Shown here: positions 15,001 through 57,000 of the stretch, piece by piece
Layout: each line of letters opens with the position of its first letter
How positions within the stretch are numbered: the first letter of the stretch is position 1
NCBI RefSeq assembly: GCF_902652985.1
Contig: NC_047016.1
Location: 35,526,001 to 35,590,000, forward strand
DNA from: Pecten maximus
Taxonomy: Eukaryota
Length of the DNA: 64,000 bases
Direction: 5' to 3'
Program-made: the position numbers

Positions 15001-18000
15001 TTCCTTCGTTTAGATTGGGTAAAAGGTTGTCAAAATTAAACTTACTGAAAAATATGTGTTTTTTCCCAAGTAGTAACAGTTCTAACCTTTACATTATTAT
15101 TAAGGCAGTATTTTTCCCCTCACGATTAACCAAAGTTCTTCGAGTATTAAGTCCTGAAAATTCTTTATTCCACCCGAAGTACCACCAATTACCGCTAAGA
15201 AATACGGTATTTGTATACGATACGCCTTTCTCTTATATATTTCGGGGCGTTGATTTAATTACATTTAGGCACAAACACTCATATGATCATCGTTCGGACA
15301 TAGATTTCATCAACAGAAATTGCGCATGTTTCTGAGGTCCGAAGTTTGCATGTTGGTATCCTCTTGTTGTTTTGTATACAACGTTGCATTTCATCTCAGT
15401 TTCACTTTTCTGCACCAGATCTTGGATTCTGACAACAATATTTAACTATCGAACGATTTGTAATTATACATGAACATTTCGTTTTTTTCTCAGTATCTGT
15501 AATTGTTCTTATCGAATCTGATTTTGTCAATTCATATCAAGCCAATATTTACAAACAAATAAACTCTCAAAAGGAACTCAATAAAGCATTATATCATATA
15601 CACTTGCTGTTTATGCAATATCAATTAACAAAGGTATAACAAAGGTATCCTTGCATTGTTTTTGATGGTAGCAAACTAAGACTCACCGAAAGTAAAAACT
15701 CCACCATTAACACCTTTTCATTTAATTTTTCTTACTGTTTTTCGGCAATGTCAGCATACTTATTGTTACCATATTGACAAGTATTACATTTAACCAGGAA
15801 CTACCTTGATATTTAACCTGAGCCCTACAAAAATGAAACAAATCGTTGACTTCACTCTTAACTAATTTTAAAGTATACATGTATAATTATATGCTTTACC
15901 TCCTAGAACTCCAAAGCTGGCATATGTGAACGACAGAGTAGGTGATACAGAAGTGATGACCAGGCTGATGCACAGGAGAACACCTCCAGTGATTACCACA
16001 GATCGAGCGGAATATCTGTTACACAGTATGCTACACACAGGGCCTACAACACAAAGTATCATATTGACAAAGTATACTACACACAGGGCCTACAACACAA
16101 AGTATCATGTTGAGAACATATACTACACACAGGGCCTACAACACAAAGTATCATATTGACAAAGTATGCTACACACAGGGTCTACAACAAAAGTATCATG
16201 TTGAGAACATATACTACACACAGGGCCTACAACACAAAGTATCATATTGACAAATATGCTACACACAGAACATACAACACAAAGTATCATATTGACAAAG
16301 TATACTACACACAGGGCCTACAACACAAAGTATCATATTGACAAAGTATGCTACACACAGGGTCTACAACAAAAGTATCATGTTGAGAACATATACTACA
16401 CACAGGGCCTACAACACAAAGTATCATATTGACAAAGTATGCTACACACAGGGTCTACAACAAAAGTATCATGTTGAGAACATATACTACACACAGGGCC
16501 TACAACACAAAGTATCATATTGACAAATATGCTACACACAGAACATACAACACAAAGTATCATATTGACAAAGTATACTACACACAGGGCCTACAACACA
16601 AAGTATCATATTGACAAAGTATGCTACACACAGGGTCTACAACACAAAGTATCATATTGACAAAGTATGCTACACACAGGGCCTACAACACAAAGTATCA
16701 TATTGACAAATATGCTACACACAGAACCTACAACACAAAGTATCATATATTGACAAAGTATGCTACACACAGGGTCTACAACACAAAGTATCATATTGAC
16801 AAAGTATGCTACACACAGGGCCTACAACACAAAGTATCATATTGAGAACATATGCTACATACAGGGACTACAACACATAATATATTGACAAATTATGCTA
16901 ACAAAAAGGACCTACAACTTAAAATATCATGTTGACAAAGTATGCTACACAATTGGCATGAGATTCATAGTGACATACAGACAAAGTACGCTTCATACAG
17001 CGCCTACAACACAAAATATCACATTGACAGATTATGCTACACACAGAGCTTACAACACAAAATATCATATTGACAAAGTGTGCTAATCACAGGGCCTGCA
17101 GCACAAAAAAAAACATATTGACAAAGTAATAAATATGTATGCTACATGGAGGGCCTAGAAATTTAAATATTTCAATGGAGTATGCTTCAGACTTAAGGCT
17201 TAAAACACATGTCATACTGACAAAGTAAGATATACATAGGATCTATAACACAAAATATCATATTGACAAAGTAATGCTTCACAAAAGGCCTACAACTTAA
17301 AATATCACATTCACAAAGTAATATGCCACACACACAGCCTACAACACAAAATATCACATTCACAGTGTATGCTACACATGTAATATCATATTGACAAAGC
17401 TTAGTATGCTACAAACAGGGCCCTACAACATAAAATATCATATTGAAAAAGTATGCTACACATAGGGCCTAAAACATCAAGAATCATATTGAAAATTATA
17501 CAATGGCAAGGTATTGTGTTAATATGAAAACCTATTTTATCTATGCTGATAAAACATTACAAATGATTCCATCAATTACTATGGAAAATTTTGGGATAAG
17601 TATCATTATGTAATTTCAGCATAAGTAGCTTTAATTATCTTTTTACTTTTGCAAAATCAGAGCGTTCTTTATTTCCTAAATAGTATTTGTCTTTACATGA
17701 ATGTGCAAAGTTAAATTAGAAATTTGGGACCCACAAGGAGAGAGGTATATATGTACTTACCTAGAGTCAATCTCAGACCTGCTGGGAGGGAGGTTGCCCA
17801 TGCTGTGGCGGCAGCAGACTTTTCAAATTTATCCTCAAACTTTAAGTAAATGATTCCAGCTGATCTCTCTATTCCACCTATAATCATGATTAAGTGCATG
17901 CCTCAGTGTGTGTAAGTGCATGCCTCAGTGTGTGTAAGTGCATGCCTCAGTGTGTGTAAGTGCATGCCTCAGTGTGTGTAAGTACATGCCTCAGTGTGTG

Positions 18001-54000: not shown

Positions 54001-57000
54001 AAAGATATGTACATGTATTAGCATTAAACTATCTAGTCAATGTGTAATCTAGCATTTGATATGATTTATATTTATGTTATAAAATGATATTTTCTTACAC
54101 TTTCTGATTGGCTACAATAGTTTCATGTGATTCTCGATAAAAAGTCCTATTGACAGCAATGAACAAATTATTTCCGATTAACTTGATGTTTCTAAAAATA
54201 TATTATATAGTATTATATATTACATGTATATAGTTATGTTCCCTTAATCTTGCATTATTTATGAATTTGTGTGCTCAATATATTTTAATGATATAAGTTT
54301 ATTGGATCGGTTCTGTAGCGTGAAATATCATCATATATATACAAAAGGTTATCATGCAAGGCTGCAGTATCTGTAGATGTGCAAGTATACTAATATTCAA
54401 TGACAAAAATAAATTTTTTTTTAAAAAGTAAAAAAATAAAAAAAAAATAAAAAATTGTCATTTGATGTCAAAATTAGTTTTCCCTGATGCATCTTTAAAT
54501 ATCTCCACATAGACAATCACGATAGATGTTTTGTTTGTACTATGATTTGCATTCAATGCAAATATAGGGTAAAGAGAAAAGAAAAACAACGCTACTTCGA
54601 TTATTCAACTTCATTTTTTTGTTACATCCATTATCGTGTAAATGCTATATTTGTGTTTTACAGCTATTACATGTATATGTATTTTATAATCCACATTCAC
54701 TTATAAACAAATAAAAATGTATCAAGCTTCAAAGCGAGTCCGTTTAACAGCAAGCATTGGCCCCAGACGCGGGTAAATGTAGTCATGCTACCTTACAGCG
54801 GAGCCAAGTTCATATTATTACTAGTGGCACCGTCAGCTCCTTTGAAGTTCAAATGATGGGACATTTTAATCTACTGAAGGCAAAAGTTTTCTGTCTGTAA
54901 ATATCATATGTCATTGGGTAGGTTAAATGATATACACCTGTAGTTTAACGCCACTCTGAGTCCCCGAACACCTCTTATCACCTTCATCCTCGGCGCTCAG
55001 AAACGTTAAGCCTGCGCATTGAATTAAGTCTTAGTTACGCCGCTATGATATCTAGATAAAACATATCCTCATGTCATAATGTGAGTGTGGATCAATATGC
55101 CAGTTAAGGATTGATTTTGAAGTTGAATCTTAGCTATAATGTGCAGGTTGACACTTAAAATAAATATGTACATGTATTACATTCGTCGACTTATTTATAC
55201 ACTTCAGTGCTTACAAATAAGATATTAAAAGAAAGCAGAAATGTAACAATACATTTTCAAATTATTATTTCATAATTGCCAAAAATACCATACAGAATTA
55301 AATAGAGTTGTTTTTATCGTAATTGAAAAATAATATTTAGTATATTGAAGAAAATAATGTTTATACTTAGTTATTTGAGCTATTACAGCGCAGGTGTAAT
55401 TTCTGATGCATTCACTATGTCCTCCTAATCTCCACAAGTCTTTAATTACCAAGGAGACTATAGATCATACGTACCCATGAAATGTCCAGACAAGGAAGTG
55501 ACGTAATCGCAATAAAAATATCGGATTGATATTGACGCACGCATACTTGCGTACAAAAATATTTACTGAAAATTGCAGTACATGATCGAAAAGGGATTGA
55601 AGAGGAAATCCCCGATACCCTTCGATCGTTGCCATCTTATATAATTAAGTTATCATATGGCATAAAGATGCTTTTAAAAAGGATTTCAAAGAAATTGTGT
55701 CGCACATCTGTCATAACAGTCATATCAAAAGGTAAATAAAGCATCACTTTGTTCTCAGCAGGCAACTTAAACAAGGAATCCATATGTATTCCTGAAAATG
55801 TTTATGGTACATCACATGACAGATCAACCCTGAAAATGTTGATGGTATATCACATGACAGTACAATCCTGAACATGTTTATGGTATATCACATGACAGTA
55901 CAACCCTGAAAATGTTTTAATATGGTAAATCACATGACAATACAACTGTTGTTTTCGGCCTGTCTTTGCCGTTGTCTGTTTCGGGCCTCCATTTGGTTCT
56001 TCAGTGTTTCTATTGGTTCCAAGTAGTTTTTCCTCAGCCAGGACATCTTAAATGTCATAATGTTGTTAACACTCCGATTTCGGCCAGCGATCATAATACT
56101 TTGACTGACGACAAAGCGGTTTCGCACAGCGGTTATCTTGTAAAACTCGTTACTACTGTCTCCACACATAGCGTCGTCCTGAAAGATGCACTTGTTGATC
56201 AGGATGTCTGGAGATATCAGCAAACAGATCATGAAGAGTTGATTTGTCTCATCCTCTGACAATGAAGCATGATTTTGATACCTTTTCAGCCGATTGATGT
56301 TTGTGCCAGGTTCGTTACCAATATCAAGCACGGTACAGACTGAATTCAGATAATACATGAGACGGGCTTTAGCGTTATTGGGAACATTCGCCGACACTCC
56401 AGTCCTCTCTACCTGCATTTGAAGTCTCCCGAATGCTGCCATCTTTCTCGTTTTACACGATGTATGTAGTAGTCAGTGGATTGGTCACAACAGTTAAGAT
56501 TCTATACGATAAAGAAACCGTAAGAACAAGTAGGGATTATATACAGGAATATCGCGTGCTTCCCAGAAAAAAGTACTAATAAGGAAATCTACTTGTGCAT
56601 TTCTTAGAACGCTACCGGCTGACCAAGAGGCAATATCAAGTTTAAAAAATACATGCCTTATTTGGGAACCAGGAAGATTATTATATTTAGGTGACATGTT
56701 TGTGAATGTGTTTTATATTCTATACATTGTTTCACTGGAAAGTTGCCAGATACCTATGGTTCGAAACAAATATCGCTTCCTATGAATGTGAAAGGAGTTG
56801 GTTGATCCATGAGATATTTTTTATGGGCCCAAATTGGTCTTTTTTTAACTGTCCTGGATTGTTCAAATTGTGATATTCTGGAGAAGTTGGGAGAGACTAT
56901 ACAAACTCAAAAACTTAAAAACAGATTAAGGATATAGATACCAAACGTCATTTATGACTAGATTTGTTTGGTTTTGTTTAACGTCCTATTAACAGCCAGG

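What the first reader, a model, noticed from the sequence alone, without database searches (positions are those of the whole stretch)
16025..55946. Four independent tandem arrays seeded from exon termini (acceptor, donor, two stop codons)
Seen: the arrays at 16025-17490 (46 bp, SLC16 exon-3 acceptor), 27353-28600 (46 bp, RABGGTB exon-3 donor), 32857-33115 (65 bp, RABGGTB stop) and 55791-55946 (38 bp, CaaX-gene stop) share no sequence with each other. Each has a unit straddling a coding/non-coding boundary and extends only into non-coding DNA, and the first three decay with distance from the exon. That is 4 of about 10 minisatellites in the window, although coding boundaries are a small fraction of it. 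Inference: this is either a boundary-linked amplification process (transcription-, splicing- or R-loop-coupled) or genome-wide minisatellite birth filtered by selection so that only outward expansions survive.
Basis: partly seen in the sequence, partly recalled or inferred. Interest (0 to 1): 0.7.

Follow-up and report, generated by a model that had tools for sequence, protein, structure and literature searches.

The report
Minisatellites grown from exon ends
Four unrelated tandem-repeat arrays in this invertebrate-like gene cluster each start with a copy of the last or first bases of a coding exon, a kind already described as "mirages" in amphioxus and in a few human genes, though four in 64 kb is more than chance placement predicts.

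Summary
Tandem Repeats Finder finds 12 arrays with period >=20 and >=2.5 copies. Four of them have an end unit that contains coding sequence and run only into non-coding DNA.

- Array 1: SLC16 paralogue exon-3 acceptor. The true acceptor puts the first exon base at 16043, not at about 16020.
- Array 2: RABGGTB exon-3 donor, at 27392|27393.
- Array 3: RABGGTB stop codon.
- Array 4: stop of a 170-codon orphan ORF ending CIVM.

The four share no sequence. In the three conserved cases the copied stretch codes for conserved residues, so the exon seeded the array.

The kind is known. Examples are amphioxus "mirages" (PMC3087553, PMC3902484) and boundary-spanning VNTRs in human F7, IFI6, CBS, LMNB2 and PDGF (PMC1557585).

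Best reading: ordinary local tandem duplications that straddled a coding limit. They were tolerated because the exon-adjacent site stays in use, and they grew by unequal exchange.

The "decay" in arrays 1 and 2 is a degenerate outer tail, not a gradient from the exon.

The excess (4 seen, 0.2-0.7 expected; P 2e-5 to 0.004) is post hoc and from one window. I found no shared hairpin, composition or GC-skew signature. A boundary-linked process stays open.

The parts
15900..16043 (-). SLC16 (monocarboxylate transporter) paralogue 2, exon 3, 144 nt. Its first 23-24 nt (codons for GPVCSIL) are the exon part of the array-1 unit.
   Evidence: Acceptor ttgtag|GC and donor GAG|gtaaag read. First exon base 16043. 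Same 144-nt exon in paralogue 1 at 2462-2605. Aligns to MCT2/MCT1 'GPVSSVLVNKYGSR'. Pfam MFS_1.
16020..17490 (-). Array 1: the exon copy plus 31 units of 46 bp. Each consensus unit holds the intron's last 22-23 nt (pyrimidine tract and AG) plus the first 23-24 nt of exon 3. It fills 84% of the 1717-nt intron 2. Units 1-17 are homogeneous with 182/228-bp higher-order periods; units 18-31 are degenerate.
   Evidence: There are 10 exact copies of the 19-mer acceptor plus exon start. All 11 decoy acceptors give a premature stop. Paralogue 1's intron 2 is 494 nt and has no array.
17761..17877 (-). SLC16 paralogue 2, exon 2 (117 nt), which bounds the array-bearing intron upstream.
   Evidence: tatag|GTGG ... 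CTAG|gtaagt. Paralogue 1's equivalent is 3100-3216.
27195..27392 (+). RABGGTB exon 3 (198 nt, 66 codons, phase 0 at both ends). It ends ...[14 protein letters not shown] with CAG|GTATGT.
   Evidence: Pfam Prenyltrans. Aligns to residues 39-104 of RabGGTase beta 6o60_B, E = 5e-45.
27354..28610 (+). Array 2: the exon copy plus about 27 units of 45-46 bp. Each unit holds the last 39 nt of exon 3 plus the first 6-7 nt of the intron. It fills 77% of the 1581-nt intron 3, has a 229-bp (5-unit) higher-order period, and its last 4-5 units are degenerate.
   Evidence: All 19 CAGGTATGT 9-mers on the + strand of the window lie here (1 authentic, 18 decoys); the 7 decoys tested all give an in-frame stop.
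28974..29079 (+). RABGGTB exon 4 (starts ILTLYD), downstream of the array-bearing intron. Its sequence is unrelated to the array unit.
   Evidence: (ttttag|ATCCTG ... TGGG|gtaagg). The protein is contiguous with exon 3 in the 6o60_B alignment.
32787..32924 (+). RABGGTB last coding exon, with TGA at 32922-32924.
   Evidence: Aligns to 6o60_B residues 287-330 of 332.
32855..33111 (+). Array 3: 4 units of 65 bp. Unit 0 is the last 21-22 codons; the stop lies in the first 5 nt of unit 1 (TGTGA occurs at both unit starts). Identity to unit 0 is 0.88, 0.82, 0.72. The history looks like a 130-bp dimer duplication.
55930..56442 (-). Orphan ORF of 170 codons ending ...NNSCIVM plus TGA (CaaX-like end after a basic stretch). 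Its coding status is probable, not proven.
   Evidence: No family or structure match. Coding-like codon-position profile. An ORF this long occurs in 9 of 200 simulated windows.
55798..55949 (-). Array 4: 4 units of 38 bp (unit 0 is 42 bp). Unit 0 holds the last 14-17 coding nt (S)CIVM, the TGA and the start of the 3' flank. The other units are 81-91% alike and 75-79% like unit 0.

Best explanation
These are ordinary minisatellites of the 'mirage' type.

Birth (inferred). A short local tandem duplication of 38-65 bp, probably by replication slippage or break repair between short direct repeats, happened to span a limit of coding sequence.

Tolerance (decoy consequences shown; actual splice-site use inferred). 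Such a duplication is harmless at birth. The copy next to the exon still supplies the authentic acceptor, donor or stop. The extra copies lie in the intron or behind the stop. The same event wholly inside an exon would break the frame.

Growth (shown by higher-order periods). Arrays 1 and 2 then grew to about 30 units by unequal exchange of single units and of 4-5-unit blocks. Their outer edge, which exchange does not homogenise, decayed. Arrays 3 and 4 stayed at four old copies.

Polarity (shown for three of four). The exon seeded the array, not the reverse.

Open point. Whether exon ends are truly favoured genome-wide is undecided. On present evidence the cluster of four is partly chance in a genome very rich in minisatellites.
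For: Polarity. The exon part of each unit encodes residues conserved in solved homologues: [12 protein letters not shown][I/V]Q and the C-terminal 44 residues of RabGGTase beta, and GPVxS[I/V]L of MCT1/2, which is also in the array-free paralogue.

Units carry intron bases too (GTATGTC; pyrimidine tract plus AG), so the copying happened in genomic DNA across an existing junction.

Short direct repeats sit at the unit joins of array 2 (GTCATGA) and array 3 (TGTGA).

Higher-order periods of 182/228, 229 and 130 bp appear. A homogeneous block is followed by a degenerate distal tail. PMC3087553 section 16 describes the same for amphioxus mirages: concerted evolution within clusters, with boundary units excluded.

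Only the exon-adjacent site keeps the frame open.

The arrays are independent. They show no shared composition, hairpin or skew feature that would point to a special mechanism.

Published precedent: the first monomer spans the exon-intron boundary in F7, IFI6, CBS, LMNB2 and PDGF, and in F7 only the most upstream donor is used (PMC1557585, abstract and introduction). Amphioxus Adh3, TnC, globin and PGBD5 are further cases (PMC3087553 section 16; PMC3902484 passage).
Against: Random birth plus a filter predicts 0.2-0.7 such arrays among 12, not 4. Even without the orphan-ORF case, 3 is unlikely (P 6e-4 to 0.02).

Three of the 8 other arrays lie 14-165 nt from an exon end, against 1.15 expected (P = 0.09).

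In arrays 1 and 2 the homogeneous, apparently active block abuts the exon, with no degenerate units on the exon side. That polarity would also fit an exon-side driver.

How an acceptor is picked correctly behind 10 or more identical upstream decoys is not explained by the published 5' splice-site scanning work.

No transcript data, reads or orthologous loci could be examined.
Confidence: 0.62

Rival explanations
1. A boundary-linked mutational process. Lesions or polymerase stalling concentrated at exon ends and gene 3' ends (nucleosome edges, transcription-replication conflicts, paused RNA polymerase) raise the birth or expansion rate of tandem duplications there. Selection then keeps only outward arrays.
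For: In-window excess: 4 seen against 0.2-0.7 expected. Three more arrays lie within 165 nt of an exon end. The homogeneous block sits on the exon side in arrays 1 and 2. Authors of the amphioxus work suspected 'a more general phenomenon' and called the mechanism unclear (PMC3087553 section 16).
Against: This is one window tested post hoc, and the number of windows scanned is unknown to me. There is no shared motif, hairpin, GC or GC-skew signature. The four sites are of three different kinds (acceptor, donor, stop), and what they share is the limit of purifying selection. The array-free paralogue has the same acceptor sequence context.
Confidence: 0.2
2. Selected function. The arrays of decoy splice sites (or of repeated 3'UTR units) are kept because they tune expression. 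They could act as U1/U2 binding platforms, as a source of nonsense-mediated-decay isoforms, or as recursive-splicing stations (each array-2 unit holds cAG|GTATGT, which would regenerate the exon end).
For: In array 2, 18 of about 27 decoy units keep a perfect 9-mer donor. In array 1, 9 decoys keep an exact 19-mer acceptor. So decoys have not been mutated away. In human IFI6 and CBS the first two pseudo-sites are used (PMC1557585 introduction).
Against: Retention of decoys is equally expected from recent homogenisation. The paralogous SLC16 gene works without an array. Distal units decay freely. Arrays 3 and 4 have no splice signals. There are no expression data.
Confidence: 0.06
3. Reverse polarity. 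The arrays came first, and the exon ends or C-termini were recruited from repeat units.
For: The first copy of each array reads in frame into the exon.
Against: The exon parts align residue for residue with distant homologues and with the array-free paralogue. The RABGGTB protein ends within 1-2 residues of the solved homologue's end. This cannot be excluded for the orphan ORF of array 4.
Confidence: 0.03
4. Assembly artefact: the arrays are mis-assembled or over-extended repeats.
For: None specific. Copy numbers of long arrays are the least reliable part of any assembly.
Against: Units differ by substitutions and indels arranged in higher-order periods, with degenerate tails running into unique sequence. 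The window has no N. The same structures were confirmed by re-sequencing or RT-PCR in amphioxus genes (PMC3902484 passage; PMC3087553 section 16).
Confidence: 0.03

Closest known systems
[quoted passage not shown]
   Same: Tandem units span an exon-intron boundary, at either the 5' or the 3' side of an exon. They duplicate AG/GT signals. Units are tens of bp (Adh3 10-72 bp). Evolution is concerted inside the cluster, with the boundary units left out. The mechanism is called unclear (PMC3087553 section 16; PMC3902484 passage). Arrays 1 and 2 match point for point.
   Different: The organism here is unknown (GC 35%). Copy numbers are higher here (about 30, against 3-6 in the globins). Arrays 3 and 4 straddle a stop codon, not a splice junction. 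Splicing fidelity and length polymorphism, shown for amphioxus, could not be tested. The founding paper (Canestro et al. 2002, PMC117041) is not held, so I know it only through citations.
Human boundary-spanning VNTRs: F7 IVS7 37-bp minisatellite; also IFI6 (6-16), CBS IVS13, LMNB2, PDGF intron 4
   Same: The first monomer contains the exon-intron junction, so the authentic donor is followed by identical pseudo-donors (25 in 6-16). Only, or mainly, the most upstream site is used, by 5'-to-3' scanning (PMC1557585 abstract and introduction). Array 2 has this anatomy, with 18 identical decoys.
   Different: In F7 only 4 bp of exon are in the unit; here it is 39 nt. Array 1 is the acceptor-side counterpart, for which that paper gives no model. 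Nothing is known here about actual splice-site use.
Intron gain by tandem duplication of an AGGT-containing exon segment (Rogers model; internal gene duplication)
   Same: A tandem duplication inside a gene places duplicate splice signals next to each other (discussed in PMC3087553 section 16; search listings).
   Different: Tested and not met. The unit contains 6-7 non-coding intron bases, and the downstream exon is unrelated to the unit. The protein is contiguous across the junction with no inserted residues. So an existing intron was lengthened, not created.
Helentron-borne satellite-like arrays dispersed in the oyster genome
   Same: Short arrays of tens-of-bp units scattered through an AT-rich invertebrate genome (PMC7492417, title and abstract in the listing only).
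   Different: Those arrays are carried by mobile elements and recur at many loci. Here each unit is unique to its locus within the window and derives from the adjacent exon.

Membership tests
Mirage / boundary-spanning minisatellite | Head-to-tail array of minisatellite-size units | tested here: met
   TRF periods of 46, 46, 65 and 38 bp, with 32, 23, 3.4 and 4 copies.
Mirage / boundary-spanning minisatellite | A repeat unit spans an exon-intron boundary, so the splice signal is reiterated in the intron | tested here: met
   Met for arrays 1 and 2. Array 1 has 10 exact acceptor-plus-exon 19-mers; array 2 has 19 exact CAGGTATGT. Not met for arrays 3 and 4, which span the CDS/3'-flank limit at a stop codon.
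Mirage / boundary-spanning minisatellite | Concerted evolution inside the cluster, edge units excluded | tested here: met
   Homogeneous units 1-17 against degenerate distal units in arrays 1 and 2. Higher-order periods.
Mirage / boundary-spanning minisatellite | Regular splicing is kept; pseudo-sites are silent or nearly so | not testable with these tools
   No transcript data. The only inference is that every decoy tested gives a premature stop.
Mirage / boundary-spanning minisatellite | Length polymorphism or instability between haplotypes | not testable with these tools
Intron gain by tandem duplication (Rogers model) | The intron consists of the duplicated exon segment; the downstream exon begins with the duplicate's remainder; the intron position is new | tested here: not met
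   The unit holds non-coding GTATGTC. Exon 4 (ATCCTGACC...) is unrelated to the unit. About 360 nt of unique intron follow the array. Novelty of the intron position was not testable.
Transposon-borne satellite-like array | The same unit occurs at several dispersed loci, flanked by element termini | tested here: not met
   Zero hits outside the own array for 11 of 11 arrays, within the window only. Genome-wide this was not testable.
RabGGTase beta (RABGGTB) as host gene | Prenyltransferase alpha-alpha toroid repeats, collinear with solved RabGGTase beta | tested here: met
   Tested exon by exon. Pfam PF00432 in 3 of 3 exons tested. PDB 6o60_B E = 5e-45 and 1e-16.
SLC16 / monocarboxylate transporter as host gene | MFS fold, with similarity to MCT1/MCT2 | tested here: met
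   Pfam MFS_1 in 3 exon ORFs, one of them below the curated cut-off. Exon 3 matches MCT2 9l0b_A at E = 1.6e-6.
CaaX-prenylated protein (host of array 4) | A real protein ending in Cys-aliphatic-aliphatic-X | tested here: inconclusive
   The ORF ends CIVM, but it has no family, structure or Atlas match and folds poorly (pLDDT 43). Codon statistics are coding-like.

The most novel reading that the evidence does not exclude
Exon-end minisatellites are not a curiosity of amphioxus and a handful of human genes. They would be the visible product of a general process, still without a mechanism, that creates or expands tandem duplications preferentially at the limits of coding exons, stop codons included. 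In some invertebrate genomes that process would build a large share of intron and 3'UTR length. Here it makes up 84% and 77% of two introns.
Probability: 0.2. Interest if true: 0.7.

Novelty: new member of a known kind. Interest (0 to 1): 0.4.

Why it matters
The loci give two clean natural experiments in splice-site choice. One authentic donor is followed by 18 identical decoys. One authentic acceptor is preceded by 10 or more identical decoys, and the acceptor-side case lacks a published model in what I read.

They also show how an intron can triple in length from its own junction: 494 nt in one paralogue against 1717 nt in the other.

Four such arrays in 64 kb make the old remark that mirages may be 'a more general phenomenon' directly testable with one genome-wide count. 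My eight literature searches found no such count. The library lacks most subscription journals.

Tried and rejected
Composition bias. I asked whether GC-richer seeds expand better. The GC of the 12 arrays falls at percentiles 7-97 of non-coding windows. Rejected.

Hairpin-driven slippage. DNA folding of 12 units gave z between -2.6 and +1.3, and the four exon copies gave +1.3, -1.6, -0.7 and +1.2. No common propensity.

R-loop-prone G-rich sense strand. GC skew is +0.22, -0.28, +0.04 and 0.00, with 0-2 G-runs. Rejected as a shared feature.

A fifth boundary case. The 22-bp array at 17891-18002 ends 13 nt before the exon-2 acceptor but contains no exon sequence. The array at 14195-14296 is 69 nt from exon 4. 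The array at 42870-43488 is 165 nt from an EF-hand exon. None straddles.

Small two-copy duplications at other exon ends. None appears in the TRF list at score >=30. Only a 9-nt in-frame repeat lies inside RABGGTB exon 4.

Identifying the orphan ORF. Pfam (twice), PDB, Atlas and a single-sequence AlphaFold2 model (pLDDT 43, too poor for a fold search) all led nowhere.

Rfam and tRNA scans of the window found nothing.

The founding mirage paper could not be read.

Two papers opened for possible genome-wide boundary statistics had none.

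
Full report
THE WINDOW. It is 64 kb with no N, GC 0.354 and CpG observed/expected 0.76. I do not take it for human. It is AT-rich, and by my count from the alignment its RabGGTase-beta exon 3 is identical to the human protein at 53 of 66 residues. It carries Tc1/mariner remnants and a dense set of minisatellites. 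I cannot name the organism. Orthologous loci, population variation and homologues of the orphan ORF therefore stayed unchecked.

GENES. I built gene models from stop-to-stop ORFs, splice signals read in the sequence, and comparison of the two SLC16 paralogues. All family and structure searches were made exon by exon.
- Minus strand: two tandem SLC16/monocarboxylate-transporter paralogues (about 845-3715 and 12403-18752; six matching exon pieces, 58-74% identical).
- Plus strand: RABGGTB (exons at 26136-26250, 27195-27392, 28974-29079, about 29482-29540, 29939-30160, 30525-30610, 31500-31580, 32787-32924).
- Minus strand: an EF-hand gene (exon ORFs at 35298-35576, 35790-36146, 42520-42705, about 43659-43780).
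- Minus strand: a 541-codon B-box ORF (48055-49677).
- Minus strand: a 170-codon ORF ending CIVM (55930-56442).

THE CENSUS. TRF finds 12 arrays with period >=20 and >=2.5 copies (repeated at a lower threshold). They are at 197, 14195, 16021, 17891, 27361, 32855, 37450, 42870, 44589, 51494, 55791 and 61740. Four overlap the end of a coding exon.

ARRAY 1 (16020-17490; gene on the minus strand). That AG cannot be the acceptor. Exon 2 ends in phase 1 (CTCTAG|gtaagt), and splicing to the AG at 16020 runs into a stop. The acceptor is ttgtag|GCCCTGTGTGTAGC, with the first exon base at 16043. This gives G-PVCSILCNRYSARS. It matches the paralogue's ttgtag|GGCCTGTATGTAGC at 2605 and 'GPVSSVLVNKYGSR' of solved MCT2 and MCT1. 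Exon 3 is then 144 nt in both paralogues. Read in the sense of the gene, the 46-bp unit is the last 22-23 nt of the intron (pyrimidine tract and AG) followed by the first 23-24 nt of the exon. The exon copy is followed by 31 units, and 10 carry the exact 19-mer acceptor plus exon start. Each of 11 decoy acceptors matching TGTAGG[CT]C would add 46-1246 nt and meet a stop within 2-33 codons. Only the authentic one is open to the exon's end. The array is 84% of the 1717-nt intron. The same intron of the paralogue is 494 nt and has no array, so the array arose after the gene duplication.

ARRAY 2 (27354-~28610). Exon 3 of RABGGTB ends ...GGTCATGACCCCCATCTCCTGTACACACTTAGTGCAATACAG|GTATGTC at 27392|27393. 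The unit is the last 39 nt of the exon plus 6-7 nt of intron, and about 27 units follow. All 19 CAGGTATGT 9-mers on the + strand of the window are here, one authentic and 18 decoys. The first seven decoys tested all lead to an in-frame stop. The copied exon stretch encodes [14 protein letters not shown], which is identical but for one residue to solved RabGGTase beta. The next exon (28974, ILTLYD) continues that alignment without a gap and is unrelated to the unit. So an existing intron was lengthened (the array is 77% of 1581 nt), not created.

ARRAY 3 (32855-33111). Unit 0 is the last 21-22 codons of RABGGTB, which align to residues 287-330 of the 332-residue solved protein. The stop TGA (32922-32924) lies in the first five bases, TGTGA, of unit 1, and the same five bases open unit 0. 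Equivalently, the last 65 nt of the coding sequence including the stop were copied three more times behind the stop. Identities to unit 0 are 0.88, 0.82 and 0.72. The 130-bp period and the shared variants suggest that one duplication was followed by a duplication of the dimer.

ARRAY 4 (55798-55949; minus strand). Unit 0 holds (S)CIVM, the TGA and the first 3'-flank bases. Three more units follow, 81-91% alike among themselves and 75-79% like unit 0. The host ORF has no Pfam, PDB or Atlas match and a poor single-sequence model. An ORF of 180 or more codons occurs in 9 of 200 Markov-simulated windows, so length alone is weak evidence. Its codon-position profile (purines 0.65 at position 1, GC 0.35 at position 2 and 0.52 at position 3) is like that of the B-box gene and unlike the other five frames. 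I treat it as probably coding. If it is not, the count is 3 of 12.

INDEPENDENCE AND POLARITY. Units of 11 arrays compared all against all give only 8-12-nt matches with E >= 0.13. None has a copy elsewhere in the window. Because the exon parts are conserved coding sequence in arrays 1-3, the exons seeded the arrays. Because the units also contain intron bases, the copying was of genomic DNA across the junction.

'DECAY WITH DISTANCE'. Over all units the correlation of identity to the exon copy with unit index is -0.68 (array 1) and -0.72 (array 2). Within the first 17 units it is +0.40 and -0.14, neither significant, and identity to each array's own medoid unit falls in the same places. So there is a homogeneous block with higher-order periods (182/228 bp and 229 bp) next to the exon, and a degenerate outer tail. 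This is the usual picture of arrays homogenised by unequal exchange with neglected edges, and it was reported for amphioxus mirages (PMC3087553 section 16). One asymmetry remains: no degenerate units lie between the exon and the homogeneous block.

IS FOUR TOO MANY? I assumed 50-90 CDS ends in the window (I count about 54 from 27 exon pieces and allowed for missed exons) and founding units of the present periods. Then 0.18-0.63 of 12 arrays should straddle an end, giving P(>=4) = 2e-5 to 2.7e-3 and P(>=3) = 6e-4 to 2.2e-2. Placing the 12 arrays at random and rejecting only those that cover more than 65 nt of CDS gives 0.74 expected and P = 0.004. Of the eight other arrays, three lie 14, 69 and 165 nt from an exon end, against 1.15 expected within 200 nt (P = 0.09). 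These are post hoc tests on one window chosen by a reader who had seen the pattern. My exon list is incomplete, and I do not know how many windows were scanned. The excess is suggestive, not established.

SEARCH FOR A CAUSE IN THE SEQUENCE.
- There is no composition bias.
- There is no common hairpin propensity.
- There is no G-rich sense strand or G-clusters that would favour R-loops.
- Short direct repeats at the unit joins (GTCATGA in array 2, TGTGA in array 3) fit slippage or microhomology-mediated repair. They cannot be told apart from a partial extra unit.
- An acceptor, a donor and two stop codons have one thing in common: each is the edge of purifying selection on coding sequence. That speaks against a splicing-coupled process in particular. 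It does not exclude one tied to transcription or chromatin.

WHAT IS KNOWN. The kind is described.
- PMC1557585 (abstract and introduction passages read): the human F7 intron-7 37-bp minisatellite has a first element that spans the exon-intron boundary. The paper lists IFI6 (6-16; 25 pseudo-sites), CBS, LMNB2 and PDGF as further cases. It shows that the most upstream donor is chosen by 5'-to-3' scanning.
[quoted passage not shown] - PMC3902484 (one passage read) adds PGBD5 and TnC.
- The founding paper (Canestro et al. 2002) is not held. Supplementary files, including the mirage alignments of PMC3087553, were closed and may bear on unit anatomy.
- In eight searches I found no genome-wide test of boundary enrichment and no report of stop-codon-straddling arrays as a class. 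The library lacks most subscription journals.

VERDICT. Arrays 1 and 2 are new members of the mirage / boundary-spanning-minisatellite kind. Arrays 3 and 4 are the same thing at the coding/3'-flank limit, which the definitions I read do not cover. The most likely account is local duplication, tolerance because the exon-adjacent site stays in use, and growth by unequal exchange (confidence 0.62). Shown: anatomy, polarity, independence, higher-order structure, and the consequences of using decoys. Inferred: the founding mechanism, actual splice-site use, and neutrality. A boundary-linked process (0.2) remains the interesting alternative, and one genome-wide count would decide it.

Noticed in passing
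845-3715 and 12403-18752 (minus strand): Two SLC16/monocarboxylate-transporter paralogues lie in tandem, with six matching exon pieces 58-74% identical and identical exon lengths for exons 2 (117 nt) and 3 (144 nt). Intron 2 is 494 nt in one and 1717 nt in the other, and the difference is array 1.
   Followed up: yes
17891-18002: A 22-bp x 5.1 array at 98% identity ends 13 nt upstream of the SLC16 paralogue-2 exon-2 acceptor, where the branch point and pyrimidine tract should be. It contains no exon sequence. Its dimer folds better than shuffles (z = -2.6).
   Followed up: partly
37450-38715: A 42-bp x 30 array (83-bp dimer period, GC 0.51, 97th percentile for non-coding DNA) lies inside an intron of the minus-strand EF-hand gene. 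Its 42-bp unit (14 codons) keeps frames open for up to 167 codons on the + strand (YEDGCQGDTKQSVS-like repeat). There is no credible Pfam match.
   Followed up: partly
42870-43488: A 44-bp x 14 array at 92% identity lies in the intron between two EF-hand exons (about 43659-43780 and 42520-42705), 165 nt from the downstream exon's acceptor.
   Followed up: partly
36915-37190 and 56992-57240: A repeated element occurs at two places. ORF translations share a stretch such as GSCQVLTVGRWFFSGYSG..PP..PGTSLNDPGC, seen only in the ORF lists. It may be a short interspersed element.
   Followed up: no
8484-9341, 41278-42093, 58458-59629 (all minus strand): Three transposase remnants. One is a 286-codon Tc1-like ORF, judged by eye only. 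One is a mariner-type piece (Pfam Transposase_1, E = 2e-10). One is a Mos1-like piece (HTH_48, E = 2e-7), in two overlapping frames and so probably frameshifted.
   Followed up: partly
48055-49677 (minus strand): A single 541-codon ORF with a B-box zinc finger (E = 4e-7) followed by a long coiled-coil-like and beta-rich region. It is the GC-richest stretch of the window (0.45).
   Followed up: no
28999-29024: A 9-nt unit (ATGTTGTGA) is repeated 2.9 times in frame inside RABGGTB exon 4 ([12 protein letters not shown]). It is the only tandem repeat found wholly inside a conserved exon.
   Followed up: no
197-361: A 42-bp x 4 AT-rich array (GC 0.24) lies about 480 nt downstream of the last identified coding piece of SLC16 paralogue 1, possibly in its 3'UTR.
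   Followed up: no
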